A DNA stretch of 38,381 nt, taken from positions 1 through 38,381 of the IMG/VR virus record IMGVR_UViG_3300030330_003971; one strand, 5' to 3'. Source of the DNA: a virus (taxonomy: Duplodnaviria > Caudoviricetes). Within the stretch, counting starts at the first letter, position 1. Each line of letters starts with the position of its first letter. A model generated the notes under the pieces. The model did no database searches. It saw only the letters and a program-made list of their open reading frames with translations, and was not told where the DNA came from. Positions 7,234 to 36,985 of the stretch are shown here, piece after piece. Made by a program: the position numbers and the translations under genes.

Positions 7234-7491
7234 ATGGGCAACGATTTTTACAGAGGCGATTTAATAAGATGGGTGGTCGGTCATGATACATATGAAAGCG
7301 ATGGGGATACGCTTTATGGAACCGATCCGATATATAATCACGGGATTATTATGGAGGTTTCAGACGTGGACCCAGCCTGCATCATCGTTCACTCCCGCGA
7401 CGTACACATGGCACCAAGATTGGTTATCCTTAACGGAGAACTCGACGAAATTCACATCCTTAGCAGCGCGGAGCAAAAAAATGAGCAGTAG
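7234..7491 (+). CDS. KOW/SH3-like small protein
   Basis: FYRGDLIRW..GIIMEV; TATTTA-N4-ATG upstream. Confidence 0.65.
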   Translation: MGNDFYRGDLIRWVVGHDTYESDGDTLYGTDPIYNHGIIMEVSDVDPACIIVHSRDVHMAPRLVILNGELDEIHILSSAEQKNEQ

Positions 7492-7777
7492 ACACTTTAG
7501 TGGCGAGAAGTTAAACAAGAAAGAAACAATTAGGAAAGTTAGCCAATATGTTGTTGATATATTTGATGGACGTTTTTGTGTTAAGTTTGATAGTGATGAT
7601 GGTGGAACTGTTTTGAATGTTTACCTTGAGGTTGATGAACCTTCAAAGCCACTTACAGGCTTTCATCAGGACGCCTTTAAACATTCAAAATGGCATGGTT
7701 GGCGTTATGTTGTAACAAAAGTGCCTCTGGGATATGTTGATGCAATTCTAGAAGCTCCAGATCGCGACGACTACTGA
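7481..7777 (+). CDS. Hypothetical protein
   Basis: GGAG SD before ATG 7481; stop TGA lies inside the promoter box. Confidence 0.65.
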   Translation: MSSRHFSGEKLNKKETIRKVSQYVVDIFDGRFCVKFDSDDGGTVLNVYLEVDEPSKPLTGFHQDAFKHSKWHGWRYVVTKVPLGYVDAILEAPDRDDY

Positions 7778-7827
7778 CATTTCCTTGACAATTAATCGCT
7801 TGCACTTTGCTGTGAGTGTGCTATATT
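7774..7827 (+). promoter_or_regulatory. Early promoter module 1
   Basis: CTGACA 7774, TTGACA 7785, TTGCAC 7800, TGC-TATATT 7822 (16-bp spacer). Confidence 0.75.
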
Positions 7828-7846
7828 AGTAATCGTAGGAGAGAAT

Positions 7847-8221
7847 ATGGCTAAAGTTCAAGTTGGCGATCTTGTTTGTATGTATCGTCGTAAAAATAAA
7901 GGCATGGGTATTGTGCTGGAGTACGCAGAGGATTTGATAGAGAAATCTGAAGCTGGCATAACCTTTGAGCAGTTCATGAATGATCTCGCCGCACTTGGCG
8001 ACAAATATGATACACGCGCTGCATATCGCAGAAAACTCAAAGCGTATGCAAAGCATCCAGATATGATTACAACGTGTTTAATTTACAACGCAAGCTGGGC
8101 TAAGAAACCTAAGAAAGAGTTTGTTAGGGTTCGTTGGTTTGAGACACCATCTATGTACGAGGCTAGCCAAACAAAAGAAATAGAAGAATGGTGCCCGATT
8201 GATTGGTTAAAGGCCATTTGA
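7847..8221 (+). CDS. KOW/SH3-like protein with helical insertion
   Basis: VQVGDLV..GMGIVL..VRVRW..WLKAI. Confidence 0.75.
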   Translation: MAKVQVGDLVCMYRRKNKGMGIVLEYAEDLIEKSEAGITFEQFMNDLAALGDKYDTRAAYRRKLKAYAKHPDMITTCLIYNASWAKKPKKEFVRVRWFETPSMYEASQTKEIEEWCPIDWLKAI

Positions 8222-8271
8222 CATTTTAGGCACAACTAATACTTGACAACTATTAGTTACGGTGATATAAT
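8218..8271 (+). promoter_or_regulatory. Early promoter module 2; consensus sigma70 promoter for the tRNA region
   Basis: TTGACA 8243, 17 bp, TATAAT 8266 with TG extension; upstream TTGACA at 8218 and a degenerate second box. Confidence 0.85.
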
Positions 8272-8279
8272 AATATTAT

Positions 8280-8366
8280 GCTTGAGTGGTGGAATAGGTA
8301 GACACAAGAGACTTAAAATCTCTCGCTCAAATGAGCATGCGGGTTCGAGTCCCGCCTCAAGTACCA
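8280..8366 (+). tRNA. tRNA-Leu(UAA)
   Basis: GCTTGAG/CTCAAGT acceptor stem, AGAGA-CTTAAAA-TCTCT anticodon arm, long variable arm, GTTCGAG, encoded CCA. Confidence 0.95.
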
Positions 8367-8384
8367 TTTATTAAGGAGAGCAAA

Positions 8385-8567
8385 ATGAAATACATTATTA
8401 ACCTTTTAATGATTGCTGCGGCAAGTTGGTTTAGTTTTGACTGGGCGACTGACAATCCTCTCAAAGCTAAGTATGCTCGCAAACAAGCTGAAAAGACATT
8501 TGAACAGGTTTATCAAACCGTTTCAGAGCATGTTGAAAATATGCAAGGGGGCACGGGGCAACCATGA
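8385..8567 (+). CDS. Small protein with hydrophobic N-terminus
   Basis: AAGGAG SD; MKYIINLLMIAAASWF. Confidence 0.7.
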   Translation: MKYIINLLMIAAASWFSFDWATDNPLKAKYARKQAEKTFEQVYQTVSEHVENMQGGTGQP

Positions 8568-8776
8568 AACCAGGACAAGTTAAAATGTGGCTGGATCAAG
8601 GCCCAGCGGTTCTATTACAGCAGTGTGATGTTGAGGGTGAATCAATATCACTGAGCGAGGTAGATGATATTGTACCTACCATTGAAAAAGGCTGGGTTAT
8701 TCACTTGCTCATGACTGATGAAATGCTCACGGTGCATGAAGAAACATTACACAATGGATCAGAACATTATGCTTGA
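8564..8776 (+). CDS. Hypothetical small protein (possibly a divergent SH3-like member)
   Basis: ATGA overlap; MKPGQV..VHEETL. Confidence 0.65.
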   Translation: MKPGQVKMWLDQGPAVLLQQCDVEGESISLSEVDDIVPTIEKGWVIHLLMTDEMLTVHEETLHNGSEHYA

Positions 8777-8939
8777 TTACACAATTATGGAATATAATTT
8801 AGAAACTAGAAAATATATCGTCATTGGTATTGCCGAGGGTATTGATGGTAATGTTGCAAAACAAAATTACATTGACAAACACGGTTGGACACCGCGAGAA
8901 GGTATTATTTTGTTTGCGAAACCACCTCTTTGCAGATAA
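8769..8939 (+). CDS. Hypothetical small protein
   Basis: Overlap-coupled; ends just before tRNA-Lys. Confidence 0.6.
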   Translation: MLDYTIMEYNLETRKYIVIGIAEGIDGNVAKQNYIDKHGWTPREGIILFAKPPLCR

Positions 8940-8946
8940 ACTTTGT

Positions 8947-9022: not shown

Positions 9023-9029
9023 CTTAAAT

Positions 9030-9106: not shown

Positions 9107-9115
9107 TTTAATAAC

Positions 9116-11334: not shown

Positions 11335-11663
11335 TGTCTGATGAGAATGACAATGTTGTTGATCTAAAGGCTTTTCGCGAGCAAAAACTTCGCGAAGAAG
11401 CTGAGAAAGAACGTCTTGAAAAAGAGCAACAAGATTATGATGACATTGAGCAAATGCGGATTGTGTTGGTCAAAATCATGGAAGCATTTGGCAAACCTGA
11501 GCAAACTGGTTCCCTTTTTTATGTTCCAATGACAGATGACGACTATTTTAATCATTACAAGTTTGATTCTGGCCATGATGATGATGGTGACTGGTATAGT
11601 TCATGGGAAGCTGAAGGTTTTGATGAGGACGATTATTTATATGGGCCAGAAGAAGATGAGTAA
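11334..11663 (+). CDS. Acidic hypothetical protein
   Basis: TAATG coupling; NVVDLKAFREQK N-terminus, D/E-rich tail. Confidence 0.75.
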   Translation: MSDENDNVVDLKAFREQKLREEAEKERLEKEQQDYDDIEQMRIVLVKIMEAFGKPEQTGSLFYVPMTDDDYFNHYKFDSGHDDDGDWYSSWEAEGFDEDDYLYGPEEDE

Positions 11664-11886
11664 AGTTTTCAAAGCTGGTGATTTTATTCGTGTCAATGAA
11701 ATGACCCACGAAGATTCGATCCCATCATCCAGATTGGGCCATATTCTCGAAGAATACAAAACTATTGTTCATTATACAGACAAGAAGCCACAGAACACAG
11801 GCATATGGAAAGTGTTCATGACCAATGGTCGTATTTTGCGTATTCATGAAATGTTTTTGGAGCATGTTGAAACAAATGAAAGTTAA
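11656..11886 (+). CDS. KOW/SH3-like small protein
   Basis: FKAGDFIRV..LGHIL..WKV..FLEHV. Confidence 0.7.
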   Translation: MSKVFKAGDFIRVNEMTHEDSIPSSRLGHILEEYKTIVHYTDKKPQNTGIWKVFMTNGRILRIHEMFLEHVETNES

Positions 11887-12046
11887 TGATATTGTAACTA
11901 AAGATCAAGTTATGAAAGTTAAAAATCCTACTGGCGTAATCGAGAAGATTACAAGCGACTATGTTGTCATTAAATGGGATGATATTCCCGGCCATTGGCA
12001 TTACACAAAAGAACAAGCTAAAACCATTGAGGTCATAAATGGATAA
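11876..12046 (+). CDS. KOW/SH3-like small protein
   Basis: MKVNDIV..TGVIE..VIKW..IEVING. Confidence 0.7.
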   Translation: MKVNDIVTKDQVMKVKNPTGVIEKITSDYVVIKWDDIPGHWHYTKEQAKTIEVING

Positions 12047-12218
12047 TGTAGAAGCTATTGATATTGCAGAAGGTTACCGCGATGCAAAAGATGAGGCAGA
12101 GTATATTGCTGCTTGGCAACAGCTTATTGATACTGGTTTAGCATGGAATCTTCAAGGTTGGTTTGGCCGCACTGCTAAGTATATGATTGAGCAAGGTTTC
12201 TGTCGTGAAAGTCGGTGA
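12039..12218 (+). CDS. Small hypothetical protein (59 aa, not in the ORF track)
   Basis: GAGG SD; AWQQLIDTGLAWNLQGWFGRTA. Confidence 0.7.
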   Translation: MDNVEAIDIAEGYRDAKDEAEYIAAWQQLIDTGLAWNLQGWFGRTAKYMIEQGFCRESR

Positions 12219-12396
12219 TTTGGTTGCATGGGAGCACGTGCCGCATGAGTTTGCCGAAATACAAACTGATTTTGGTATTATTATCAGCATGTCAAAAACA
12301 GGTCACAAAACAAAATCGGCACAAGTTAGATTTATGAACGGTGATATACACTGGTATGATACACAAAGGTTGGTACTAGTAAATGAAAGTCGGTGA
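12205..12396 (+). CDS. KOW/SH3-like small protein
   Basis: GTG-KVGDLVAW..GIII..LVNESR. Confidence 0.75.
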   Translation: MKVGDLVAWEHVPHEFAEIQTDFGIIISMSKTGHKTKSAQVRFMNGDIHWYDTQRLVLVNESR

Positions 12397-12586
12397 CTTG
12401 GTAAAAAATATTCCCGAACCTGAGCATGGTTTGGGTATTGTCTTGGAAACAGATGTTGAAACATGGGGTTTTCGTGGGGAGCCCATGGGCGTTCGTGTTG
12501 CATGGCCGCGACCCACATATATTTCTGACAAAGGTGGCTCAATTATGTATGCAGATGAAGTGGCGGTGATCAGTGAGAGTGGGTGA
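12383..12586 (+). CDS. KOW/SH3-like small protein
   Basis: MKVGDLV..GLGIVL..VRVAW..VISESG. Confidence 0.8.
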   Translation: MKVGDLVKNIPEPEHGLGIVLETDVETWGFRGEPMGVRVAWPRPTYISDKGGSIMYADEVAVISESG

Positions 12587-12794
12587 TCTGATTGCTTTCA
12601 AACCGAAATCTTTTGGGGATGATGATTGGTCAAACCCGTCTATTGTTTTGAGTGGGTTTGTTAACGATGATCGTGATTTCGGTGGTCATCGTGACATGAT
12701 ATGGATCGTTTGGTGTGATGGTGGTGAATACATGGTCAACGAAAGAAACGACGATATTATGTACTTGACATCTTCTTCACATTTAAAAGGTTGA
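12573..12794 (+). CDS. KOW/SH3-like small protein
   Basis: MRVGDLI..IVL..WIVW. Confidence 0.75.
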   Translation: MRVGDLIAFKPKSFGDDDWSNPSIVLSGFVNDDRDFGGHRDMIWIVWCDGGEYMVNERNDDIMYLTSSSHLKG

Positions 12795-13326: not shown

Positions 13327-13435
13327 TTTTAAGGATGATATTGAGAGAGCAGAAAGAAACATTCTTATTTTTAGCTGGGTCGGTATCATCGCGTCTATTG
13401 GTGTGATAGTTAGCGGTATATGGTGCGTGCTATGA
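13310..13435 (+). CDS. Small membrane peptide
   Basis: GGAG SD; C-terminal TM ILIFSWVGIIASIGVIVSGIW. Confidence 0.55.
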   Translation: MKNKNSFKDDIERAERNILIFSWVGIIASIGVIVSGIWCVL

Positions 13436-13638
13436 GAGTTAACGACTTAGTATTATGGAATGGCCACCCTGTTCTTATCACAGAACTTTATGAAAGTAAA
13501 ATGTGGCGCACCAGCACGCAAGGCAGGGCGGTCAGCTTCAAAGATATTGATCCTGAGCCATTTGCCCGTATATTTTTCAAGGGCACGCTGCGCGGTGTAC
13601 CACTGATTGACTTGAAGCCGATTGATGAAACACGGTGA
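13432..13638 (+). CDS. KOW/SH3-like small protein
   Basis: MRVNDLV..LKPIDETR. Confidence 0.7.
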   Translation: MRVNDLVLWNGHPVLITELYESKMWRTSTQGRAVSFKDIDPEPFARIFFKGTLRGVPLIDLKPIDETR

Positions 13639-13828
13639 TCTTGTCCGTGCCTTTTATCGCGATGGCGGGTTTGGAAGCGTTAAGTGGGACGGCCCATTTC
13701 ACGGTTTTATTTGCATGACACCTGACGATAATGAAAATGGTGTATGGCAAATGTGGTGCATTGAGCGCAACGCTTATCATATCATAAGACCTTGGCACGA
13801 TAAAATAGAAGTTGTCAGCGAGGCTTGA
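13625..13828 (+). CDS. KOW/SH3-like small protein
   Basis: MKHGDLV..GFI..WQMW..IEVVSEA. Confidence 0.75.
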   Translation: MKHGDLVRAFYRDGGFGSVKWDGPFHGFICMTPDDNENGVWQMWCIERNAYHIIRPWHDKIEVVSEA

Positions 13829-13879
13829 CATTTCCTTGACAAACAAACCATTGACGGCACAACTCGATTATGCTATATT
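13825..13879 (+). promoter_or_regulatory. Early promoter module 5
   Basis: TTGACA 13825/13836, TTGACG 13851, 17 bp, TGC-TATATT 13874. Confidence 0.9.
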
Positions 13880-13901
13880 ATATAAGTAATCAGGGAGAGA
13901 T

Positions 13902-14099
13902 ATGCAAGTCGGTGATTTAGTAATGTATAGATATGACAGGGTTAAGCATATTGTTGTGGGTTCACCTGTGGGCATAGTCACGCACATCGATCCAGAAGAA
14001 ATCGGAGATCAAGAGGAAGTGTTGGTGTTATGGAACGATGATCAGGGGGTCATGAATCACTCAATAAAATATCTTGAGGTCATCAATGCAAGTCGGTGA
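13902..14099 (+). CDS. KOW/SH3-like small protein
   Basis: MQVGDLV..VGIV..VLVLW..YLEVINASR. Confidence 0.8.
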   Translation: MQVGDLVMYRYDRVKHIVVGSPVGIVTHIDPEEIGDQEEVLVLWNDDQGVMNHSIKYLEVINASR

Positions 14100-14250
14100 C
14101 TTAGTTAAATGTCTGACGGGAAGCTGTGGCACGGCCATCATTGTCGAGTTCCACAAAACATCTGGATTGTATTGGATCATGATGACCCACAACGGTCGCA
14201 TGCGTGCCTTTCAACCGCAATACTTGGAGTTGATCAGTGCAGGTAGGTGA
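14086..14250 (+). CDS. KOW/SH3-like small protein (54 aa, not in the ORF track)
   Basis: MQVGDLVKC..AIIV..YLELISAGR. Confidence 0.75.
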   Translation: MQVGDLVKCLTGSCGTAIIVEFHKTSGLYWIMMTHNGRMRAFQPQYLELISAGR

Positions 14251-14416
14251 TTTGGTAATAATGCCTGGGTCGATTGATCCAATCACGGGTATTGTTTTGA
14301 GAGTAAAATCAGACGGTTATCAACATCGTCTTAATCGTGTTGAAGTATATTGGATTGAGGATGGCGAAGCATCATGGGAACCTGTCAAGTGGTTAGAAGT
14401 TATTAGTTCTTCTTGA
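14237..14416 (+). CDS. KOW/SH3-like small protein (59 aa, not in the ORF track)
   Basis: GTG-QVGDLVI..GIVL..VEVYW..WLEVISSS. Confidence 0.75.
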   Translation: MQVGDLVIMPGSIDPITGIVLRVKSDGYQHRLNRVEVYWIEDGEASWEPVKWLEVISSS

Positions 14417-14488: not shown

Positions 14489-14665
14489 ATGCAAGTGCTT
14501 AAAGCTGGAACATTAGTAGGTTGGAGAGGTTCAGTCGGAATCATCCTTGGCAAAGTCGAGAAACGCGGCGCATGTCCAACGGACGTGTGGGTCAAATGGA
14601 CAGACGAAACAGAACTTAAATGGGAAAACTCGATGTTATTGGAGGTGCTTAGTGAAAGTCGGTGA
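14489..14665 (+). CDS. KOW/SH3-like small protein
   Basis: LKAGTLV..GIIL..VWVKW..LLEVLSESR. Confidence 0.75.
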   Translation: MQVLKAGTLVGWRGSVGIILGKVEKRGACPTDVWVKWTDETELKWENSMLLEVLSESR

Positions 14666-14828
14666 CATTGTAAAGCATAAATATGGAACGCTGATGGGCC
14701 ACGGCATTGTTCTTGTTGCTCGTCCAAACATCGGCGGTGTCCGTGCGCTGTGGACCGCGCATGGTCAATCAAAAGTACACGAACTATCGAGTAAGTATTT
14801 GGAGGTGGTGCATGCCGCAAGTAGGTGA
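14652..14828 (+). CDS. KOW/SH3-like small protein
   Basis: GTG-KVGDIV..GIVL..ALW..YLEVV. Confidence 0.75.
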   Translation: MKVGDIVKHKYGTLMGHGIVLVARPNIGGVRALWTAHGQSKVHELSSKYLEVVHAASR

Positions 14829-15024
14829 TATTGTTAAAGTTTTAGGGACTAACGAGAAGAAGATTATTGTTGGTTCTCGCACGGAGATTGTGCCGTTTAC
14901 TGGCGACTGGTCGAACACCGATGAGTTGCGAGCGCGGGTAACATACGAACTCGCAGGCAAACCTGATCGATGGTTTACAATCGGTGACATTGAGATTTTG
15001 TCAGCACGGAGGACGGTAAAGTGA
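14812..15024 (+). CDS. KOW/SH3-like small protein
   Basis: MPQVGDIVKV..IEILS. Confidence 0.7.
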   Translation: MPQVGDIVKVLGTNEKKIIVGSRTEIVPFTGDWSNTDELRARVTYELAGKPDRWFTIGDIEILSARRTVK

Positions 15025-15197
15025 AAGTTGGTGATGTTGTTAAGCATTTTCTTACTGAGCAGATCGGTGTTATACTTGAGGTGCGCGGTGATATTGGTGT
15101 CCATGTTCTGTGGACCACACAGGGTCTATCGCTTTTCGGGGCCGGTCACAAGGAATGGTGTTTCGAGAAAAATGTGGATCTCTTGACAACTGCTTGA
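15021..15197 (+). CDS. KOW/SH3-like small protein (58 aa, not in the ORF track)
   Basis: GGAGG SD; GTG-KVGDVVKH..GVIL..VHVLW. Confidence 0.75.
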   Translation: MKVGDVVKHFLTEQIGVILEVRGDIGVHVLWTTQGLSLFGAGHKEWCFEKNVDLLTTA

Positions 15198-15613: not shown

Positions 15614-15948
15614 AAGTTTGGGTGATGCAAGGTATTCACGAAGGCGATTTGTTTTCATCGGTTCACCTGACCGAAAAGGGTGCAGCACTGGCGGCTATTA
15701 CTGACGTGCTGGATTTTCTTGGTGTTGATGATGAGGAAACAGCGTTGAATGTTGTGGGCAACTTGTCAAACTATGGTCTTACAGAGAAAGATGTTGAACA
15801 AACAGGAGCATTTGAGTGGAACCACGACAAGCTGAAAGAAATGACCCGAAGTGAGTTGTGGAGCGTTTTTAGTGCATGGGCTGAACTCACATGGAGCAAC
15901 GACTATGGCTATCAGGTTGATGTAATGGTCAGGGAGATCGCAGCATAA
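15610..15948 (+). CDS. Hypothetical protein
   Basis: ATGA overlap, GGAGG SD. Confidence 0.75.
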   Translation: MKVWVMQGIHEGDLFSSVHLTEKGAALAAITDVLDFLGVDDEETALNVVGNLSNYGLTEKDVEQTGAFEWNHDKLKEMTRSELWSVFSAWAELTWSNDYGYQVDVMVREIAA

Positions 15949-16124
15949 TGCAACTTAAACCTGGACTATTGGTAGAAAGAACTTACGGCGAAGGGCGTCG
16001 GCCTGTCGGCATTATTATCGCGAGAGGTGGTAACGCTCGACTTGGCGAATGGTGGATCGTCGAGTGGGCTGGTAGCAGCAAGCGCGAGATCATGAGTTAT
16101 AGATACCTCAAACCAGTCACTTGA
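15948..16124 (+). CDS. KOW/SH3-like small protein (58 aa, not in the ORF track)
   Basis: MQLKPGLLV..VGIII..WIVEW..YLKPVT. Confidence 0.7.
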   Translation: MQLKPGLLVERTYGEGRRPVGIIIARGGNARLGEWWIVEWAGSSKREIMSYRYLKPVT

Positions 16125-17786: not shown

Positions 17787-17969
17787 ATGTTAGAAGTTGG
17801 AAACATTGTAAAAAGCAAATATATCATGGAAGGCCATCGCGCTCGCATTGGTCTTGTGATGAAAGTGCTACGCGACGGCTCTGAGATTGCACAAGTATAT
17901 TGGCCACACAATAGAACATTCGGCTTTGTCAAGTGCAAAGATATGGAGGTTGTAAGTGAAGGTGGGTGA
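17787..17969 (+). CDS. KOW/SH3-like small protein
   Basis: MLEVGNIV..IGLV..QVYW..MEVVSEGG. Confidence 0.75.
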   Translation: MLEVGNIVKSKYIMEGHRARIGLVMKVLRDGSEIAQVYWPHNRTFGFVKCKDMEVVSEGG

Positions 17970-18138
17970 TCTGGTAAGGGTGGAAACAAAGCATGCTGGC
18001 GGCAAGGTTGGCGTAGTTGTCAAGCCGTGGGGTCAGCACCTTGGCAATAATGCATGGGTCGTTGCACTGCGCGATCACACATGCGCTCGAACAATCGCGT
18101 CCGAATGTGATATGGAGGTAATCAATGAAAGTCGGTGA
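17956..18138 (+). CDS. KOW/SH3-like small protein
   Basis: MKVGDLVRV..VGVVV..MEVINESR. Confidence 0.8.
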   Translation: MKVGDLVRVETKHAGGKVGVVVKPWGQHLGNNAWVVALRDHTCARTIASECDMEVINESR

Positions 18139-18304
18139 TTTAGTGAAAGGTGTACCAGCCGCATCGCCTGAGTACAGAGATTGCATCGGTATCGTTGTTG
18201 GATTATCCGACAGCCGAGGGAGAATAATAGTTAAATGGAACGATATGCAAAGGCCGTACCCCGAGCCTCGTCATTACTTAGAGGTGATCAATGAAAGTCG
18301 GTGA
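18125..18304 (+). CDS. KOW/SH3-like small protein (59 aa, not in the ORF track)
   Basis: MKVGDLVKG..IGIVV..IVKW..YLEVINESR. Confidence 0.8.
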   Translation: MKVGDLVKGVPAASPEYRDCIGIVVGLSDSRGRIIVKWNDMQRPYPEPRHYLEVINESR

Positions 18305-18497
18305 TCTGGTGACATATTACTTTCAACTTCCACGATGGCGTAAAGGTCTATCTGTCCACGTCGGCCTGATTGTCGAGACTGGTAAATATACTGGCAACCG
18401 CGATGTTAAAGTTTTGTGGAATGATAAAACAGAACCAGAAACCGAAGGCAGTCAGCACCTTGCGCTCGTTGATAACATTTGCTTGACATCTTCTTGA
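18291..18497 (+). CDS. KOW/SH3-like small protein
   Basis: MKVGDLVT..VGLIV..VKVLW. Confidence 0.8.
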   Translation: MKVGDLVTYYFQLPRWRKGLSVHVGLIVETGKYTGNRDVKVLWNDKTEPETEGSQHLALVDNICLTSS

Positions 18498-19516: not shown

Positions 19517-19999
19517 ATGAAAGTTCGCAACGCAATCAAGAAAGTCAAATCACACTTCAAGAAACAAGGCATTGACATTGAGGTCACAAACATTAGGGGC
19601 CGGTGGTCATTCCAACATGACGGCTACGTTGGTTCGTTCTTGGCTAATGGTGTACTTGACGATGATCCCAATGTGCTCGATGCCGAGGCGTGCAACTTCC
19701 ATGTTCGCGGTGTCAACGATCACACTGATCTTCATACCGATTACTTTGCAGGCTCGTTCCGTGACAACATTACACAGGTCTGCGAAAGCCTGTTGCCATC
19801 GCCACCTAAATATCCTGTTGGCTCACTGGTGCGAGGTAAGCAGAACAAACGTGCGACCCGTCAGGGCTATGCTGGCCGCGTCGGTCTTGTGATGGAAGCC
19901 AACGCTGGTGACTATGCTCGCATTGCTTGGACTGGCGAGACTCAACCACGTTGGGGCTGGCCGACCTATCCGACCCGCGACCTTGAGCCAGCGACTTGA
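19517..19999 (+). CDS. Two-domain protein with C-terminal KOW/SH3-like domain
   Basis: PKYPVGSLVRG..VGLVM..ARIAW..DLEPA. Confidence 0.75.
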   Translation: MKVRNAIKKVKSHFKKQGIDIEVTNIRGRWSFQHDGYVGSFLANGVLDDDPNVLDAEACNFHVRGVNDHTDLHTDYFAGSFRDNITQVCESLLPSPPKYPVGSLVRGKQNKRATRQGYAGRVGLVMEANAGDYARIAWTGETQPRWGWPTYPTRDLEPAT

Positions 20000-20112: not shown

Positions 20113-21195
20113 ATGGCTATCGACTTCGCAACATTCACAACCGTCGCCCCTCACATCCTCGACAACAAGCTGCCCGTGCTTCTGCGCGGTCGTCACGGTG
20201 TCGGTAAATCTGAGGTGGTCTATCAGATCGCCGCTGCCCGTGACCTTCCAGTGGTCGAGCGTCGTGCCAGCCAGATGACCGAAGGTGATCTTCTCGGTCT
20301 GCCTGACACGGCAGACACCGAGATCAATGGCCGCAAGGCTACCACGTGGAACGCCCCTGACTGGCTTGTGACCGCGTGTGAGCAACCTGTGATGCTGTTC
20401 CTCGATGAAGTGGACCGTGCGACTGTGGAAGTCCGTCAGGGCCTTTTCGAGTTGACCGATAGCCGCAAGCTGAACGGCTGGCGCTTGCATGCTGACACCC
20501 TGATCGTTGCCGCTGTCAACGGTGGCGAGCACGGTGCTCAATACCAAGTTGGCGAAATGGACCCTGCTGAGTTGGACCGTTGGACCGTGTTCGATGTGGA
20601 GCCTTCCGATGAGGATTGGTTGAAGTGGGCAACCGACCGCACCGATGGTATTCTGTGGGATTTCATCAACCAGAACCGCATGCACCTTGAGCATCGTGGT
20701 GACTTCGAGCCTAACAAGGTTTACCCGTCACGCCGTAGCTGGAAGCGGTTCAACGATACCGCAGTTTCCACTGGTGTTTTCGGTGAGGAAGGCGACCGTG
20801 ACCTTCTGTTCAACCTCGCGACTGCGTTCGTCGGGTTCGAGGCCGCCGTTGCTCTCCGTGACTTCGTTGAAAAGTACGAGTGGCAAGTGACGATCGCTGA
20901 CATTCTTGACAATGGCGAGATCGACAAGACCGCTCAGTGGGGCATCAATGACCACGCTGCTATGATTGAGAAGTTCGAGGCATCTGACGTGTTCTCTGAG
21001 ACTCTGACCGAGACGCAGGTGACTAACCTCGCCAACTACTTCGTAACCCTGCCTTCCGAGGTAGCCATGAAGCTGTGGACCGTTCTCGGTGACACCGACA
21101 ACATTGACAATGTTGTGGCACTCCACAAGGCCGAGGCGTCCGATGGTCGCCGTGTCTCTGACCACCTTGTTGAGATCCTTGGCGGTAACTCTTGA
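20113..21195 (+). CDS. MoxR-like AAA+ ATPase
   Basis: Walker A GRHGVGKS, Walker B LFLDE, sensor-1 AAVN, DPAELDRW, PSRRSW. Confidence 0.9.
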   Translation: MAIDFATFTTVAPHILDNKLPVLLRGRHGVGKSEVVYQIAAARDLPVVERRASQMTEGDLLGLPDTADTEINGRKATTWNAPDWLVTACEQPVMLFLDEVDRATVEVRQGLFELTDSRKLNGWRLHADTLIVAAVNGGEHGAQYQVGEMDPAELDRWTVFDVEPSDEDWLKWATDRTDGILWDFINQNRMHLEHRGDFEPNKVYPSRRSWKRFNDTAVSTGVFGEEGDRDLLFNLATAFVGFEAAVALRDFVEKYEWQVTIADILDNGEIDKTAQWGINDHAAMIEKFEASDVFSETLTETQVTNLANYFVTLPSEVAMKLWTVLGDTDNIDNVVALHKAEASDGRRVSDHLVEILGGNS

Positions 21196-21395
21196 AATAC
21201 AAGGTAGGCGACCTATTAATCAGGGAGTACGATAAGTGCCCCTGTGTGGTCGTTGAGGTGGCCGAGAGCACCAAAAAGGAGTGGGGAACCCTTGATGCCA
21301 ACAGACGCCAGTACAGGCTATTTGATGGCCATTCTGCTGCACAGTGGTATGCCGACACGGTTCTCCATGCTGCCTTTCGTGTTCCCATTCCTTGA
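21192..21395 (+). CDS. KOW/SH3-like small protein
   Basis: MKYKVGDLLI..VVVEV. Confidence 0.7.
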   Translation: MKYKVGDLLIREYDKCPCVVVEVAESTKKEWGTLDANRRQYRLFDGHSAAQWYADTVLHAAFRVPIP

Positions 21396-23118: not shown

Positions 23119-23952
23119 ATGGCTCGACCGCGCCCAACCTATCGCACCCGCCTTGAAGTTCTGATCAACAATCCCGCTATTTCAGCGCGTGATAAGGATT
23201 TTGCTCAGTCCCTTCTTTCATACTATGAGCGCAAAGGTCGTTTGTCTGCCGGTCGCGTCAAGTGGGTCGCTACTCTGGAGGATCGCTATTCCCCTGAGAA
23301 GCTGTTAGCTGCTACCAAGAAACACAAGACGTTCCTTATGCGCTTGGATGCCCTTAGCATGCGTTGTGAGCCTTCAAGCTGGGCCGCTGGCTATGTTGAG
23401 AGCCTGACCAGTCAAGTCAAGGGTGATCGCCGTCTGTCAGAGCGCCAGCTTCAGATTCTACGCAAGATTGAAGCAGAACATGATGATGCTGCACTGGCCG
23501 AGCGTCAAAAGTGGATTGAGAGTTATACAAATAATCCTGATCTCCGCGCTGATGCTATCGTGGTTGCAAACTATTATATGAGCACGGGTTACTTCAAGGA
23601 TACAGCCCGTGAGATTATTGGTAACGATACTTTTATTCCAACTTATTCACAATACAATAAGATGGTTAAAAACAAGTATGCACAAAAGGTGCTCGCTTCA
23701 CACCACGCGCCTGCTAAATACGAAGCTGGACAGTTGGTAACATTCCGTGCCAACGCTCCAACTAACTCGCGCTATCTCGATGGCGGCATCCTCAAGCGTA
23801 ACGTGACAATGATGGTTATCGAAGCTGATGCTGCGCCTATCACGTCTGCCGCTCGCGGTGCTAAGGTTTACAAGCTGCTGCCCGTTGGCAAGGCATCCAC
23901 GCTTGAAGTTGAGGAACGCTATATTATGAAGGCCCGCCCTAAGAAGAAATAG
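23119..23952 (+). CDS. Protein with two helical repeats and a C-terminal KOW/SH3-like domain
   Basis: FAQSL..RLSAGR / YVESL..RLSERQ repeats; AKYEAGQLVTF..VEERYI. Confidence 0.8.
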   Translation: MARPRPTYRTRLEVLINNPAISARDKDFAQSLLSYYERKGRLSAGRVKWVATLEDRYSPEKLLAATKKHKTFLMRLDALSMRCEPSSWAAGYVESLTSQVKGDRRLSERQLQILRKIEAEHDDAALAERQKWIESYTNNPDLRADAIVVANYYMSTGYFKDTAREIIGNDTFIPTYSQYNKMVKNKYAQKVLASHHAPAKYEAGQLVTFRANAPTNSRYLDGGILKRNVTMMVIEADAAPITSAARGAKVYKLLPVGKASTLEVEERYIMKARPKKK

Positions 23953-25098: not shown

Positions 25099-25371
25099 GT
25101 GGGCAAGATTCATAGAAGATCATTTGTTATAGGCGATTTAGTAACTATAGCGCCAGACTTTCGCAATTCAGTGTTGGACTTTGATTTCGAAAAGTACATA
25201 GGCATTGTTATGAATACACCAGAAGAGAATGAGTATGTTGTGTATTGGACCAACTCACCAGTTAACAACTATTACAAGGGAATGTGGTGTGGCGATCACT
25301 TGGTAAAAGTTGAAGATTATGATTTAGAGAAAGAAAAGATCGGATCGCGCTTGCATATGATAGAGATATGA
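25099..25371 (+). CDS. KOW/SH3-like small protein
   Basis: FVIGDLV..IGIV..YVVYW..HLVKV; TAGTTA-N4-GTG. Confidence 0.75.
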   Translation: MGKIHRRSFVIGDLVTIAPDFRNSVLDFDFEKYIGIVMNTPEENEYVVYWTNSPVNNYYKGMWCGDHLVKVEDYDLEKEKIGSRLHMIEI

Positions 25372-25586
25372 GTTATAATAGTCAAGTAGACGAATTTGTA
25401 AAGGGCGATTTGGTTTACTTTACAGGCTACCAAGTTGATAATCCACCGCTAGCGCATAAAATAGGCATTGTAATGAAAGCAGGCATGGGGGCCGCGCCTC
25501 ACACAATGTATGAGGTTATGTGGTTGCATACAGGTAATATTATTACAGTAGCAGGAAAACATCTTACTTTAGCATATACGAGATAA
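25368..25586 (+). CDS. KOW/SH3-like small protein
   Basis: FVKGDLV..IGIV..YEVMW..HL. Confidence 0.75.
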   Translation: MSYNSQVDEFVKGDLVYFTGYQVDNPPLAHKIGIVMKAGMGAAPHTMYEVMWLHTGNIITVAGKHLTLAYTR

Positions 25587-25602
25587 CGAACTATTTATGA
25601 AT

Positions 25603-25872
25603 ATGGAAATCACAAAAGCAAGGCTTGTACAGCTTATTAATGAAGAACTAACACGCGCCGATAAGTCGGAGATTAAAAAAATGATCGACGACGCGATTGA
25701 GAAGGGCGTTAAGCGTGATCTTAAAAAACACTTGGAAGACGAGCTAGTAAGAACGCTTAAATCCAAAGACGTAAAGGCAGACATAGGCGAAATTGCCAAA
25801 AAGGTAATTAAAAAGCTTTATAAGGACCTTTCATTCCACCACCCATATATTATTGATCGTATTAAGATATAA
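25603..25872 (+). CDS. Helical protein with an 'ITKARLVQLINEEL' leader
   Basis: TATTTA-N5-ATG; leader type shared with 29439 and 33040. Confidence 0.75.
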   Translation: MEITKARLVQLINEELTRADKSEIKKMIDDAIEKGVKRDLKKHLEDELVRTLKSKDVKADIGEIAKKVIKKLYKDLSFHHPYIIDRIKI

Positions 25873-26057
25873 TGTACGTACGTAAAGATAAAGCTAGCAT
25901 TGGCGATTGGATTAAAGACGAATTTCGCAACGACCGTTCCCTGGGCATTGTGCTTTCTACAGATGATGAGACTGGCATGATGCTTGTGCGCTACCCAAAA
26001 ATCGCCAAAGACGTTTGGGTAGTGCGCGAAAATCGGGGCCATTATATTGTTATATAA
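25872..26057 (+). CDS. KOW/SH3-like small protein
   Basis: IGDWI..LGIVL. Confidence 0.7.
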   Translation: MYVRKDKASIGDWIKDEFRNDRSLGIVLSTDDETGMMLVRYPKIAKDVWVVRENRGHYIVI

Positions 26058-26088
26058 CTATTTAAAACGTTTTAAAGGACTTTGTTTT

Positions 26089-26313
26089 ATGTATTACTGT
26101 ACGCCGGCAATTTTTTTAATTGGAATTGCGCTTTCATCATGCTCCCATGGCATCGCTAAAGAACCTGACGACAGCTATTTATTCGAGATTGAGGAATGCC
26201 CAAGCCCGATCTGCACTAAGTTGCAAAACTTACAGCATCACACATATAAACCTGTACATAAGCAGCCATATAATTCATTACAAATTTTTGAAGACTGTGT
26301 TATTGCACTTTAG
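26089..26313 (+). CDS. Possible small lipoprotein
   Basis: AAGGA SD; hydrophobic stretch then LSSC. Confidence 0.45.
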   Translation: MYYCTPAIFLIGIALSSCSHGIAKEPDDSYLFEIEECPSPICTKLQNLQHHTYKPVHKQPYNSLQIFEDCVIAL

Positions 26314-26328
26314 GGCCCTAAGTACTAT

Positions 26329-26589
26329 GTGGGCGATTATGACGACAAAGATTTAATTATCTTTGGGGTTGGCGACTTTGTTGTCGATACTCAATTTAAT
26401 GACATTGGGCTGCTGCTTATGCGTTTTAACTTAGTCGACGACTCATACCCGCCAATATATGCATGGGACATAATCTGGTCTGGCTGTCGTACTGCCATGA
26501 AAGGTCAACCAAGGCGGGCACCTTACACTGAAGAAAGCTTAAAAAACATGGTTATCGAAGGTGTATTAACTTTACATAAAAATAATTAA
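26329..26589 (+). CDS. KOW/SH3-like small protein
   Basis: GVGDFVVD..DIGLL..WDIIW..EESLK. Confidence 0.75.
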   Translation: MGDYDDKDLIIFGVGDFVVDTQFNDIGLLLMRFNLVDDSYPPIYAWDIIWSGCRTAMKGQPRRAPYTEESLKNMVIEGVLTLHKNN

Positions 26590-26592
26590 TAT

Positions 26593-26871
26593 ATGATAGA
26601 AAACTTGCAATCTCGCCTAAAATCTGTTATATTATCAATAGGTGATATTGTTGTTGATTGTGTTAATAATGATATTGGCATTTTAGTTCGTCGCGTACGT
26701 CAATTTGATGTAATGTTAGATGAGCTTTATATTTGGGAAGTGCGTTGGATTAATAAGGCCAAGGAAGACCTACCCATGTCTGGTGCAATAGAGGAAGAAT
26801 CCCTTAAACTATCAATCGCTGTTGGTACATACGAATGGCATTCAATAAACGGAGAGAGCATTGAGTTATAA
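26593..26871 (+). CDS. KOW/SH3-like small protein (tandem paralog of 26329)
   Basis: SIGDIVVD..DIGIL..WEVRW..EESLK. Confidence 0.75.
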   Translation: MIENLQSRLKSVILSIGDIVVDCVNNDIGILVRRVRQFDVMLDELYIWEVRWINKAKEDLPMSGAIEEESLKLSIAVGTYEWHSINGESIEL

Positions 26872-27307
26872 TTGGAACGTATACAAAGTATTTAAGAATG
26901 GAAATAGGGCAAAAGCCCCAATGGCTACATTCGAATGTGATGAAGTCACAATGGAAGAGCATTTTAATAATGTAATAAAGAAAAATTTTAGTGGAAAATT
27001 TGCTGACGCAAATTATCATATTATTCGCTCGGATCTGCCCCAAGAAGAAAATCTCGCGTCTGAAGAAGAAAAAATTTCTAAAGAAAAAAATCGCGTTTTG
27101 GGGCGCATCGCTGCACAACAACAAATCAATTACAAATACGGTGTCGGGACGTCCCTGGTATATTGTGCCGAATCTAACTGGCGTTGGCAATGGGCCGCGG
27201 TAGGTGCAGCAACAAGTAAATACCTTGCTGGGCTCTCTCCTAAATTTGACACGTATACGGAGGCCCAAGTTTGGATTCAAGAACTTATGGATATGAAGAG
27301 CGCTTAG
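26861..27307 (+). CDS. Hypothetical protein
   Basis: GGAG SD, TTG start. Confidence 0.7.
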   Translation: MSYNWNVYKVFKNGNRAKAPMATFECDEVTMEEHFNNVIKKNFSGKFADANYHIIRSDLPQEENLASEEEKISKEKNRVLGRIAAQQQINYKYGVGTSLVYCAESNWRWQWAAVGAATSKYLAGLSPKFDTYTEAQVWIQELMDMKSA

Positions 27308-27510
27308 ATAACGTTACTAAGGGCAGCTTAGTAAAAATTTGTGTCACAAACTGGGGGGCGCCTCCAACTTATTGTATGGGTGTAGTGATTGACACCGTCA
27401 ATAAAAATAATGAAACACTATTTCCTTCGGTGGTGGTATATAATTTAGAGACCAAGAAAACAACACGTGAATTTCTTGGCGGACTTAGGATTATATCAAA
27501 AGTTGATTGA
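27271..27510 (+). CDS. KOW/SH3-like small protein
   Basis: KGSLVKI..MGVVI..LRIISK; start uncertain. Confidence 0.6.
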   Translation: MDSRTYGYEERLDNVTKGSLVKICVTNWGAPPTYCMGVVIDTVNKNNETLFPSVVVYNLETKKTTREFLGGLRIISKVD

Positions 27511-35011: not shown

Positions 35012-35017
35012 AACAAC

Positions 35018-35626
35018 ATGAAGCACTTACTTGAAAATTGGCGCAATTATGTTATACTTGAGAACATTGAAACGGCAACTCGTTTGTCAGTTTTTGATTT
35101 TGATGAAACAATAGCTTTTTCTGAAGGTCATATTAATGCCATTGACAAACGAACTGGTCAAGAGTTCAAAATTCGTACACAAAAAAAGTATGACCAATTA
35201 AAAGCCGATGGTAATTATGAATTTGATTTCTCGCCACTCGACCAAGTACACAATGCAGTTGAAAACCCCAATGTTACATCAATCTTAAGAGATCGATTAG
35301 CAGACCCTAATACACAAGTAATGGTTTTAACTGCTAGGGCTCCTATTTCAATTGATGATATTCACAGAGTTCTGCAAACATTTGATAACCCTATCGAGAC
35401 CAAAGATATTATTATGATTGGAAACGAGGGTGGTAATAAAGGTGAATACATTAGAGATGTTATCCTTTCAAAGTATGATAACATTAAAGAAATAGAGTTT
35501 TATGATGATTCTGAAAATAATATTGTTGACATGAAAGCAGTAAAAAACGAAACATCTGAAACAGGTCGCATAGAAAACTTTGACATTTATAAAGTGGTCG
35601 AAGGAATTCCTGAGAAAGTACCTTGA
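35018..35626 (+). CDS. HAD-superfamily phosphatase with MKHLLENWR leader
   Basis: FDFDET, LTAR, K, FYDDS motifs I-IV. Confidence 0.85.
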   Translation: MKHLLENWRNYVILENIETATRLSVFDFDETIAFSEGHINAIDKRTGQEFKIRTQKKYDQLKADGNYEFDFSPLDQVHNAVENPNVTSILRDRLADPNTQVMVLTARAPISIDDIHRVLQTFDNPIETKDIIMIGNEGGNKGEYIRDVILSKYDNIKEIEFYDDSENNIVDMKAVKNETSETGRIENFDIYKVVEGIPEKVP

Positions 35627-35656
35627 AACAACTAATTATATCGTGGAGGCTCTACG

Positions 35657-35980
35657 ATGTCTAACAATAACGGTTGGGAAACTTATTCTAAATTAGTTCT
35701 ACAGCAGCTTGAAACCATGTCAAATGGAATTGAGGCTTTGCGCACTGAGCTTCAAGATATGAAGAGTCAGTTAACTGAGCTAAAAGCCCGTGAAGATAGA
35801 GTTCAAGATATCAAGATCTGGAAAGAAAAAATGGATGATGTTGCATCACCACCACAACTCAAAACAGCAATGGAAGATATTGAACAACTTAAAGAATTTA
35901 AAACAAAAGCTGTAACCATGTTCATGGTTGTGCAATCAATTATGGGCATTGCCATGGCATGGGCGCTGGATATTTTTTAA
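35657..35980 (+). CDS. Coiled-coil protein with C-terminal TM helix
   Basis: TAATTA + GGAGG upstream; heptads; hydrophobic tail. Confidence 0.75.
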   Translation: MSNNNGWETYSKLVLQQLETMSNGIEALRTELQDMKSQLTELKAREDRVQDIKIWKEKMDDVASPPQLKTAMEDIEQLKEFKTKAVTMFMVVQSIMGIAMAWALDIF

Positions 35981-36073
35981 TAAATAAATAAAAGTTATTT
36001 ATTATACCAAAGCTAAAACGTACCATATTTGTCTCGGGGATATTTTTTAGGTTAACTCACATGTAGTTACTGT

Positions 36074-36364
36074 ATGGCTACTAAAAAACAATTAACTGAA
36101 AAGATTAAATTAATCACCAAACAAATCTCTGGTCAAGCTGACGAAGATGATGATGAAATAGTTGCGTATTATCATATTAAGGGCAGTGGTTACGGGTTTT
36201 TTCTTAGCTACATTGATAGAACATTCGTTAAAGTGGCGCGGCAAAGTGAAGTCTATATTGTCTCAGAAAATTTTGATATCCCTGGTCGTCACTTAGTTTA
36301 CACATATTCGCATGAATTAATTATAATTGACGAAGAAGAGTTAGAATATATTGGCTATAATTAA
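36074..36364 (+). CDS. Hypothetical protein
   Basis: TAGTTA-N4-ATG. Confidence 0.75.
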   Translation: MATKKQLTEKIKLITKQISGQADEDDDEIVAYYHIKGSGYGFFLSYIDRTFVKVARQSEVYIVSENFDIPGRHLVYTYSHELIIIDEEELEYIGYN

Positions 36365-36495
36365 TGTTATTTTCTTTTAATCCTTTCTGGAAATCACTCT
36401 TGATATTATTGTTTTCATGGCTAATATATGCTATATGGGGTTATGAATTTGCAATTATTACATTATTAGCTTTAATTTTAGCTAAAAACACCTAA
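36364..36495 (+). CDS. Small two-TM peptide (43 aa, not in the ORF track)
   Basis: TAATG coupling; MLFSFNPFWKSLLILLFSWLIYAIWGYEFAIITLLALILAKNT. Confidence 0.65.
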   Translation: MLFSFNPFWKSLLILLFSWLIYAIWGYEFAIITLLALILAKNT

Positions 36496-36516
36496 TATTA
36501 CCCTATTTATGTCAAG

Positions 36517-36729
36517 ATGGGCAAAAATAAAAGGAAATATTATGTTTCTGAACACGGAAGTGTGCGCAAACTAAACCAAAAAGCATTTCTTGTATATTGG
36601 AATGACAGCAGCAAACGAAAGCATTCAACTTCTTCTGGGCCGTATTCAGACTTTAAGGAAGCAGAAAAAATTATGATTAGTCACCTAATTAATGGAGTTT
36701 GTTCATGGATAGTATCTTACAATGGATGA
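36517..36729 (+). CDS. Hypothetical protein
   Basis: TATTTA-N7-ATG. Confidence 0.65.
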   Translation: MGKNKRKYYVSEHGSVRKLNQKAFLVYWNDSSKRKHSTSSGPYSDFKEAEKIMISHLINGVCSWIVSYNG

Positions 36730-36985
36730 AAAAAGCGCTTTTGGTGAACTACATTCTAAAAATTTTACTGTTGGTGATATAGTAGAATGGTCTTCTTGGG
36801 ATACATTTAAGGAAGCTTGGGTGCAAAATTACGGTGTAATTACAGAAATCAAAAATGAAATGAGACACAATAGATTAGTATGTATCTCTAAAGTGCTGCC
36901 GGTAAATTCAAATACAGAAATGGAACATTTCACAATGAGTTTAAGATTAGTATCTAAATCAAAGGACATTGAGGGTGATAGTTGA
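36722..36985 (+). CDS. KOW/SH3-like small protein
   Basis: FTVGDIVEW..YGVI..LRLVSK. Confidence 0.75.
   Translation: MDEKSAFGELHSKNFTVGDIVEWSSWDTFKEAWVQNYGVITEIKNEMRHNRLVCISKVLPVNSNTEMEHFTMSLRLVSKSKDIEGDS

What the first reader, a model, noticed from the sequence alone, without database searches (positions are those of the whole stretch)
7234..36985. About 30 paralogous 'MKVGDLV' KOW/SH3-like mini-proteins: a diversified scaffold library
Seen: roughly 20 free 54-125-aa genes in 7234-21395, 7 more at 25099-27510 and 36722, and C-terminal fusions (19517, 23119) share [KQ]VGD[LI]V-x(n)-G[IL][VI][LV]-x(n)-VxW-x(n)-LE[VL][IV], with freely varying loops. Several are under 60 aa and missed by the ORF track. 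Established: KOW/SH3/Tudor barrels bind RNA, ribosome or RNAP (NusG-CTD, L24) and peptides. Inference: a constant beta-barrel with hypervariable loops, expressed early from strong promoters, could be a repertoire of binders against host or defence proteins.
Basis: partly seen in the sequence, partly recalled or inferred. Interest (0 to 1): 0.85.

Follow-up and report, generated by a model that had tools for sequence, protein, structure and literature searches.

The report
Self-chaining mini-barrel gene library, marine phage
An uncultured marine phage carries about 31 very different genes for one tiny protein predicted to fold as a KOW/SH3-type barrel; many are linked by a shared overlap that ends one gene and starts the next, relatives differ by whole genes exactly at that overlap, and the proteins likely act as a swappable set of binders for host proteins, which is untested.

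Summary
In detail: 31 of 33 candidate genes match one family (24 control genes do not), and two models fold as KOW/SH3-type barrels. No Pfam or PHROG family fits. The family is expanded across a clade of T4-like 190-290 kb phages (at least 28-38 copies per genome).
Nine gene pairs overlap by exactly 14 nt: the codons for 'LEVINESR*' carry the Shine-Dalgarno, start and 'MKVGD' of the next gene, making a ~33-nt repeat. A relative and metagenome contigs show whole genes gained, lost or moved at this repeat or at a repeated promoter element. No integrase or reverse transcriptase was found; RecA/UvsX is present.
The loops are not freely varying: within orthologue groups they are under purifying selection like the core (dN/dS about 0.13-0.34). 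This is a shuffled library of fixed specificities. One divergent barrel (21192) never moves from between a MoxR ATPase and a peptidase-vWA gene.
Binding targets, expression and host are untested. The scan reported the same cassette reading on other DNA (e1-6089429); I found no paper describing it.

The parts
7234..7491 (+). barrel gene, divergent
   Evidence: hhalign 96%
7847..8221 (+). barrel gene with long insertion, behind a promoter element at about 7775
   Evidence: 96%
11656..12046 (+). two barrel genes (11656-11886, 11876-12046), 11-nt overlap
12205..12794 (+). chain of three barrel genes (12205, 12383, 12573) joined by 14-nt overlaps; the unrelated gene 12039-12218 is joined to 12205 by the same overlap
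13432..13828 (+). two barrel genes (13432, 13625), 14-nt overlap; a contig has 439 other letters at this junction
   Evidence: (X12 record 1)
13825..13901 (+). example of the ~77-nt promoter element: two tandem TTGACA, then TTGAC-17-TATATT and a Shine-Dalgarno; supplies the stop of the upstream gene. 12 copies between 12765 and 23035 (12765, 13825, 14413, 15183, 16121, 16905, 17711, 18483, 19437, 20008, 21392, 23035)
13902..14416 (+). chain of three barrel genes (13902, 14086, 14237), 14-nt overlaps
14489..15197 (+). chain of four barrel genes (14489, 14652, 14812, 15021); overlaps 14, 17 and 4 nt; 14812 lies elsewhere in relative L076, where 15021 follows 14652 directly
15948..16124 (+). barrel gene
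   Evidence: 99%
17787..18497 (+). chain of four barrel genes (17787, 17956, 18125, 18291), 14-nt overlaps; 18125 is cleanly absent, junction to junction, in one metagenome contig
   Evidence: (X13 record 14)
18109..18144 (+). example of the coding junction: GGAGGT in the LEV codons, start codon, MKVGD codons whose GGTGA is the upstream stop
   Evidence: (family D4, 8 copies)
19517..19999 (+). 160-aa protein with C-terminal barrel
   Evidence: 98%
20113..21195 (+). MoxR-type AAA+ ATPase embedded in the array region
   Evidence: AAA_5 E 3.9e-10; within 10 kb in 29 of 40 junction-selected loci
21192..21395 (+). divergent barrel of a subfamily found only just downstream of the MoxR gene; 4-nt overlap with it
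21470..22723 (+). HExxH metallopeptidase-vWA protein
   Evidence: DUF2201_N E 5e-22, DUF2201 E 6e-10
23119..23952 (+). 277-aa protein with a probable C-terminal barrel (weak)
   Evidence: hhalign 56%
25099..27510 (+). six divergent barrel genes (25099, 25368, 25872, 26329, 26593, 27271) without the 14-nt junction
   Evidence: hhalign 75-98%
36722..36985 (+). isolated barrel gene
   Evidence: 97%

Best explanation
These are about 31 paralogous genes for a predicted KOW/SH3-type five-strand barrel in a T4-like marine phage; many are chained by a shared coding junction at which relatives differ by whole genes, likely through homologous recombination, and each barrel likely binds its own host protein early in infection. 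Shown: the junction (consensus about 33 nt) holds the last strand of one gene, the ribosome-binding site, start and first strand of the next, and the upstream stop, so a swapped gene lands in frame with its own start and stop. A second repeat, a 77-nt promoter element, ends and begins each short run. Orthologues keep their loops under purifying selection and occur about once per genome, in changing order. Inferred: exchange between co-infecting relatives by the phage RecA/UvsX or by micro-homology annealing; translational coupling along each chain; early transcription; distinct host targets (defence proteins, transcription or other machines). Confidence is about 0.85 for the cassette architecture and 0.55 for the whole statement.
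For: Fold: AF2 pLDDT 89, five strands; best match Spt5 KOW Z 9.8, rmsd 1.4 over 56; family profile matches NusG E 0.0015 and HERC2 E 0.002. Junction: of 976 directly starting genes, 844 use GGT at Gly4 (86%) against 1232 of 3997 (31%) elsewhere; 502 of the 812 with GGTGA have a family gene ending there. Breakpoints: window vs L076 homology starts at TGGAGGT and ends after GTGA..T for genes 17956, 18291, 14812/15021; X13 record 14 aligns 17776-18114 then 18281-18560, missing exactly the 166-nt unit; X12 record 1 has 439 other letters at 13614/13625; X13 record 9 matches 14653-14845 with 1 difference but has 266 other letters before it. In 258 of 381 orthologous pairs ungapped homology stops within 20 nt upstream of the motif, 73 run on 100 nt or more. 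Selection. One copy per genome: 18 of 545 genes have a 50% paralogue in their own array; window rows need 21 label changes for 21 rows on a quick tree. RecA family in 3 of 3 complete genomes. Net charge median 0, 5th-95th percentile -7 to +5, fitting varied partners. Precedent: phage Nip, with two predicted SH3-like domains, inhibits a defence NADase (PMC11984713, passages read).
Against: No binding, expression or host evidence at all. The fold is shared by RNA-, DNA- and protein-binding domains and even an enzyme (one search lists PsaE, Tudor, PWWP, R67 DHFR within about 2-3 Z units). No sign of diversifying selection, which an arms race at the loops might be expected to leave (pooled counts cannot see single sites). 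No PADLOC similarity of note (1 of 147, E 0.007). The junction's exact matches are short (median longest run 11 nt, mean identity 69% over 39 nt), short for RecA. Non-family neighbours also change place, so the region is plastic in general. About half of the window's 31 members lack the 14-nt junction. The 381 pairs are not independent and ungapped extension stops early at indels. Metagenome contigs can be mis-joined at repeats.
Confidence: 0.55

Rival explanations
1. The barrels are substrate adaptors for the neighbouring phage MoxR AAA+ ATPase and metallopeptidase-vWA protein: one fixed barrel (21192) plus a swappable library that brings host proteins to be remodelled or cut.
For: The 21192 subfamily lies between the two genes in 65 of 74 loci, and all 75 hits of its HMM lie just downstream of the ATPase. 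The ATPase is within 10 kb in 29 of 40 loci chosen by the junction alone. The Lon specificity factor 5ycq has the same fold class (Z 5.5; a generic score). Earlier scan notes e1-5644990 and e1-3754306 report barrels beside such pairs in other phages (unchecked).
Against: 9 of 74 loci lack the fixed barrel while keeping the pair, and several of them keep arrays. In G001 the ATPase is only 36% identical and lies just beyond the array. The library barrels share no obvious surface motif beyond framework and junction. Iyer et al. propose virion assembly for this pair (PMC7824862, passage read). Gene neighbourhood alone is weak evidence.
Confidence: 0.17
2. The barrels are decoys of NusG/Spt5 KOW, CarD or UvrD-type domains, or ribosomal KOW proteins, and all act on the host transcription-translation machinery or on RNA.
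For: Best structural and profile matches are NusG/Spt5 KOW domains; the 21192 model's top rows are CarD Z 7.6 and PcrA/UvrD C-terminal domains Z 6.8-7.0.
Against: The NusG-type FG[RK] loop occurs in 18 of 1326 genes and a KOW-type G[KP][FDY]xG loop in 2. Charges are not basic. Hundreds of separately conserved loop sets (850 clusters at 55%) fit one target poorly. Z scores under 8 may mean only a common fold.
Confidence: 0.13
3. The cassettes spread because the junction inserts them easily and in frame; the proteins are tolerated passengers kept folded only to avoid harm.
For: Very fast turnover: phages with 80-90% identical ATPases share 6% of their barrels (107 pairs); 663 of 850 clusters are singletons. 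In the closest pairs (21 pairs, pS under 0.1) dN/dS is 0.14-1.14 on few changes.
Against: Surface loops are as constrained as core strands in the other 309 pairs, which folding alone would not require. Distinct loop sequences persist across divergent phages. Phages keep at least 28-38 copies behind strong promoter elements.
Confidence: 0.1
4. Translationally coupled barrels assemble with each other into mixed oligomers, in the manner of Sm/Lsm rings.
For: Fixed overlaps suggest stoichiometric synthesis; edge strands are exposed in this fold (general knowledge).
Against: Neighbours change freely between strains, so partners are not fixed. The model has no N-terminal Sm helix.
Confidence: 0.05

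Closest known systems
PeSL mobile regulatory cassettes of T4-type phages (Arbiol 2010, PMC2839356, abstract and outline seen; Comeau 2014, PMC4122927, passages read)
   Same: Hyperplastic region of a T4-like phage, small non-essential genes, repeated strong sigma-70 promoters, gene gain, loss and displacement at the repeats.
   Different: PeSLs are intergenic promoter plus stem-loop elements flanking unrelated ORFans. Here the main repeat is inside the coding sequence, is made by the conserved ends of one protein family, and couples the genes; the promoter element has tandem TTGACA copies and no regular upstream stem-loop.
NusG/Spt5 KOW domain; CPH, Tudor, PsaE and YorP small barrels
   Same: Five-strand barrel with the VGDxV start and G-x-V second strand.
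   Different: Free-standing 54-90 aa proteins in about 30 copies; no NusG loop motifs; no Pfam match at a curated cut-off.
SH3/Tudor-like clusters of phage proteomes (Viral AlphaFold Database, PMC12487901, one passage read)
   Same: Small barrels are the largest bacterial-virus-only structural clusters, about 1.3% of proteins in bacterial clusters.
   Different: The passage gives no per-genome expansion, cassette junction or function. Its dataset S1 was not examined and could hold members of this family.
Phage Phi3T Nip counter-defence protein (PMC11984713, passages read)
   Same: Phage protein with predicted SH3-like domains that binds and blocks a defence enzyme.
   Different: 279 aa, single copy, extra HU-like domain; the role of its SH3-like parts was not shown in the passages read; no sequence comparison was made here.
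Integron cassette arrays and diversity-generating retroelements (recalled; PMC9892861 seen as a search listing only)
   Same: Swappable single-gene units, or a constant scaffold with variable binding surfaces.
   Different: No tyrosine or serine recombinase and no reverse transcriptase found in 3 complete relatives; diversity is kept as stable lineages.
Bacillus phage G zinc-ribbon expansion, about 35 copies, and the MoxR / peptidase-vWA pair of group 2.2 jumbo phages (Iyer 2021, PMC7824862, passages read)
   Same: A small-domain family of similar copy number in a jumbo phage; the same ATPase-vWA gene pair.
   Different: Different fold; no cassette junction and no barrel between the pair is mentioned in the passages read.

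Membership tests
KOW/SH3-type small beta-barrel (fold) | five-strand barrel with short helical turn before strand 5 | tested here: met
   two models, pLDDT 89 and 86; Z 9.8 to Spt5 KOW, rmsd 1.4 over 56. Only 2 of 31 members were modelled.
Pfam KOW / NusG C-terminal domain | match to the curated family | tested here: not met
   no match at a curated cut-off for 33 window proteins; no KOW family among 147 members at E 0.01; profile-level likeness only
Pfam KOW / NusG C-terminal domain | FG[RK] loop used for S10 and Rho binding (motif recalled; visible in the alignment) | tested here: not met
   18 of 1326 genes
Tudor methyl-reader | aromatic cage of 3-4 residues | tested here: inconclusive
   3 or more aromatics at four positions in 6 of 1326; one position is 71% aromatic. 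The cage positions were chosen from recall, not by superposition.
PeSL cassette | repeated strong sigma-70 promoter | tested here: met
   12 elements in 12765-23035
PeSL cassette | stem-loop terminator just upstream of the promoter | tested here: not met
   no terminator-like site at the elements; upstream 57-nt folds of -3.5 to -16.9 against background -10.1 +/- 4.3. One element (16905) does close a larger structure.
PeSL cassette | rearrangements map to the repeat | tested here: met
PeSL cassette | excised mini-circles | not testable with these tools
   only assembled contigs were available
Integron | IntI tyrosine recombinase | tested here: not met
   PF00589 in 0 of 3 complete relatives, controls 14 of 14; the window's own record is a 38-kb fragment
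Integron | attC sites between cassettes | tested here: not met
   genes overlap with no spacer; no Rfam match but tRNAs; no dedicated attC model was run
Diversity-generating retroelement | reverse transcriptase | tested here: not met
   PF00078 in 0 of 3 complete relatives; control rings in 3 of 14
Far-T4 phages | gp23 falls in the Far-T4 clade | tested here: inconclusive
   capsid protein of relative G004 is 34-45% identical to RM378, Mel-JY01 and immuto phages; no tree was built
Anti-defence protein | blocks a defence system | not testable with these tools
   needs a bench assay

The most novel reading that the evidence does not exclude
A recombinase-free, self-encoded cassette system: the conserved ends of one protein fold double as ribosome-binding site, start, stop and recombination site, so a clade of marine jumbo phages shares an open pool of more than a thousand single-domain binders, and these serve as interchangeable adaptors that aim a phage MoxR ATPase / peptidase-vWA machine at host and defence proteins.
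Probability: 0.17. Interest if true: 0.92.

Novelty: new variant of a known kind. Interest (0 to 1): 0.72.

Why it matters
It shows a way for a phage to keep and reshuffle a large protein repertoire with no dedicated recombinase: the protein's own framework codons are the cassette ends. The family is uncatalogued, with 1222 clusters at 50% identity from a 17-sequence profile, and takes at least 28-38 genes per genome in a widespread uncultured phage group. Because each orthologue group keeps its loops, the library can be synthesised and screened directly for anti-defence activity or host targets, which could also point to the unknown host. It is also a natural set of 55-70 aa binding scaffolds.

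Tried and rejected
Pfam and PHROGs on 33 candidates: only 2 and 4 weak rows at E 0.025-0.079. ESM Atlas: hypothetical viral clusters, with weak leads DsrB and SH3-C_UBE2O. tblastn of two members against 50,697 GenBank phages: no match. Hypervariable loops: rejected (the identity bands bias dN/dS down, so, binned by synonymous distance, is used). Combinatorial loop swapping: many discordant pairs, but only 3 of 683 genes pass a strict three-way test (593 of 1326 rows were dropped for a broken framework or short loops), so it is minor. Recent in-genome duplication: rejected (the tree is a quick one on 64 columns, 14 of 118 branches strongly supported). Host: the junction occurs in 8 assembled-genome contigs of mixed taxa; three of five such genomes also hold the phage capsid gene, and in the WOR-3 record the arrays lie among N-joined pieces with phage genes. 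I read these as mis-binned phage DNA, so no host is assigned. Expression: no RNA holder listed. L038/L039 have a length like the window's record but are only 69% alike over short pieces, so they were kept as relatives. P0011 is a repeat-protein false positive among the 150 listed hits. Literature searches that found no description of this family or junction: (open-access library only; no supplements read).
Full report
Setting. The window is a 38,381-base virus record found in marine DNA metagenomes of several studies. Its close relatives are 187-196 kb records; a more distant one is 293 kb. The capsid protein of relative G004 is T4-like, 34-45% identical to those of RM378, Mel-JY01 and the immuto phages. 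No cultured phage matches the two barrels tested. The host is unknown.

The observation. The strict motif occurs 11 times against 0.02 expected. An iterated profile finds 21 window genes with no decoy hits. Profile-profile comparison accepts 31 of 33 candidates, 28 of them at 88% or more, and none of 24 control genes. The paralogues are distant from each other (median 23%) and match no Pfam or PHROG family at a meaningful score.

Fold. AlphaFold2 on a 147-row alignment gives a five-strand barrel, pLDDT 89. The best match is the Spt5 KOW domain (Z 9.8, rmsd 1.4 over 56 residues), followed by other KOW, PsaE, NdhS, PWWP, Tudor and YorP barrels. Foldseek gives the same neighbours with no E-value under 0.001. 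The family profile matches NusG (E 0.0015) and HERC2 (E 0.002). The divergent member 21192 folds the same way (pLDDT 86). The fold does not name a function. The NusG loop motif is nearly absent (18 of 1326) and net charge is centred on zero.

Spread. An exact junction pattern fetched 40 loci from 36 viral contigs, some of them copies of one virus; each holds 5-37 members. These loci were chosen by the junction, so I also took loci by the neighbouring ATPase: 36 with 9 kb or more upstream hold 2-30 barrels, median 14.5. Three whole genomes hold 35, 28 and 38 members, nearly all in one 30-40 kb stretch on one strand. These are lower bounds, since that profile misses 10 of the window's 31. A 17-sequence profile finds 1222 clusters at 50% identity (at least one listed hit is false). 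1326 genes from the fetched loci fall into 850 clusters at 55%, 663 of them singletons.

The junction. In the window nine barrel-to-barrel pairs, and one unrelated gene to barrel, overlap by exactly 14 nt. The upstream gene ends LEVINESR-stop. The same DNA holds GGAGGT in the LEV codons, the next start codon, and the MKVGD codons, whose GGTGA is the upstream stop. Across loci 844 of 976 directly starting genes use GGT at that glycine, against 31% elsewhere, and 502 of 812 have a family gene ending there. Copies in one genome are 69% identical with a median exact run of 11 nt. A second repeat of about 77 nt, with tandem TTGACA copies before a near-consensus sigma-70 promoter, occurs 12 times between 12765 and 23035; in 9 of the 12 it holds the stop codon of the upstream gene. 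About half of the 31 members, including all those beyond 25 kb, lack the 14-nt junction.

Whole genes move at the repeats. Relative L076 has a 99% identical ATPase but only 67-89% DNA identity over the pieces of the region. It shares 82% of the barrels. There, 17956 follows 14237, 14812 sits in another chain, 15021 follows 14652 directly, 12205 and 12383 are swapped, 17787 and 18125 are absent, and four other barrels are present. Base-level comparison puts the ends of homology in the junction. In metagenome contigs one 1099-nt record aligns to 17776-18114 and then 18281-18560, lacking exactly the 166-nt unit of gene 18125. Another has 439 other letters at the 13432/13625 junction. A third matches gene 14652 with one difference in 193 nt but has a different sequence before its start codon. 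21 of the 24 loose ends shown lie at a junction, start or promoter element (counted by hand; 103 more were not shown, and contigs that share only the repeat would give the same picture). In 258 of 381 orthologous pairs homology ends within 20 nt of the motif (pairs not independent). Turnover is fast: 6% of barrels shared at 80-90% ATPase identity. Three complete relatives have a RecA-family gene and no tyrosine recombinase, resolvase or reverse transcriptase. The enzymology is inferred.

Loops are fixed per lineage. For 330 reciprocal-best pairs binned by synonymous distance, dN/dS in the three upper bins is 0.21-0.26, 0.22-0.34 and 0.13-0.27 for the three loops and 0.17-0.29 for the two core strands; 0 of 97 mid-distance pairs exceed 1. 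The top bin is near saturation. The closest 21 pairs give 0.14-1.14 on 51 changes, too few to read. Loop lengths run from 4 to 20 residues between paralogues. Only 18 of 545 genes have a 50% paralogue in their own array, and genomes do not cluster on the tree. Strict loop chimeras are 3 of 683. The genes are therefore very likely translated and useful, and the repertoire changes by exchanging whole genes, not by mutating loops.

One barrel does not move. The 21192 subfamily lies between the MoxR ATPase and the peptidase-vWA gene in 65 of 74 loci, and all 75 hits lie in that slot. The ATPase is within 10 kb in 29 of 40 junction-selected loci. This is the lead for the adaptor rival. Against it, 9 loci have the pair without that barrel. 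A complex prediction could not be run.

How it most likely works. Inferred: host polymerase transcribes the short chains at once after entry, ribosomes re-initiate at each overlap, and about 30 small barrels appear together, each binding a different host protein. During co-infection, recombination at the junction or promoter repeats swaps genes from a clade-wide pool, and any swap is in frame and expressed. I give 0.85 to the architecture and 0.55 to the whole account. Rivals: adaptors for the MoxR/peptidase machine 0.17, transcription-factor decoys 0.13, passengers 0.10, mixed oligomers 0.05.

Comparison with print. It works like PeSL shuffling in T4-type hyperplastic regions (PMC2839356 abstract and outline; PMC4122927 passages) but fails the stem-loop test and uses a coding repeat. 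SH3/Tudor-like barrels are known to be common in phage proteomes (PMC12487901, one passage; its supplement was not examined and may list members). Nip is a precedent for an SH3-like anti-defence protein (PMC11984713, passages). Iyer et al. describe the MoxR/peptidase-vWA pair and a 35-copy zinc-ribbon expansion (PMC7824862, passages). Far-T4 papers give no settled host (PMC4360716, PMC13037479, passages). Nine searches found no description of this family or junction. I had reached the cassette reading (notes) before seeing that the scan reported it on other DNA (e1-6089429); that note is not independent evidence.

Verdict. Real, uncatalogued and structurally unusual, with function untested: a new variant of repeat-mediated cassette shuffling. 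Interest 0.72.

Noticed in passing
window 16768-16916: A 150-nt non-coding stretch closed by 21-nt inverted arms folds at z = -5.5 (0 of 200 shuffles as good), has no Rfam match and is well conserved in L076 (about 7000-7150); its 3' arm overlaps the promoter element at 16905. Candidate structured RNA or regulatory element.
   Followed up: partly
window 8280-10113: Five tRNA genes (Leu-TAA, Lys-TTT, Met-CAT, Arg-TCT, Ile-TAT) at the start of the array region.
   Followed up: no
window 32508, 33896, 35018: Otherwise unrelated proteins share an N-terminal MK(L/H)L(L/M/I)ENWRxY motif, also seen in G004 proteins; possibly a head-packaging or targeting signal.
   Followed up: no
window 3191-3964 and 27706-28434: Two trypsin-like serine proteases with predicted hydrophobic N-termini.
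   Followed up: no
window 5449-6384: Pol-beta-type nucleotidyltransferase; all Pfam scores are below cut-off.
   Followed up: no
window 28840-30077 and 32508-33225: Several Lys- and Cys-rich basic proteins with no Pfam match.
   Followed up: no
window 24359-25000: A cluster of further tandem TTGACA repeats with degenerate promoter spacing (24359, 24835, 24859, 24982), at the end of the higher-GC region.
   Followed up: no
L162, L165-L169 (G010) and L156-L161: Several public metagenome-assembled genomes of unrelated taxa contain fragments of this phage group; in the WOR-3 record the arrays lie among N-joined pieces.
   Followed up: partly
L076:3155-3327 and L155:7538-7706: Two clear chimeric barrels whose first loop comes from one subfamily and second loop from another, crossing in the conserved second strand.
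   Followed up: partly
window 18562-19440 and 13006-13326: A two-zinc-knuckle protein and a SWIM zinc-finger protein sit among the barrels and recur in relatives in changing positions.
   Followed up: no
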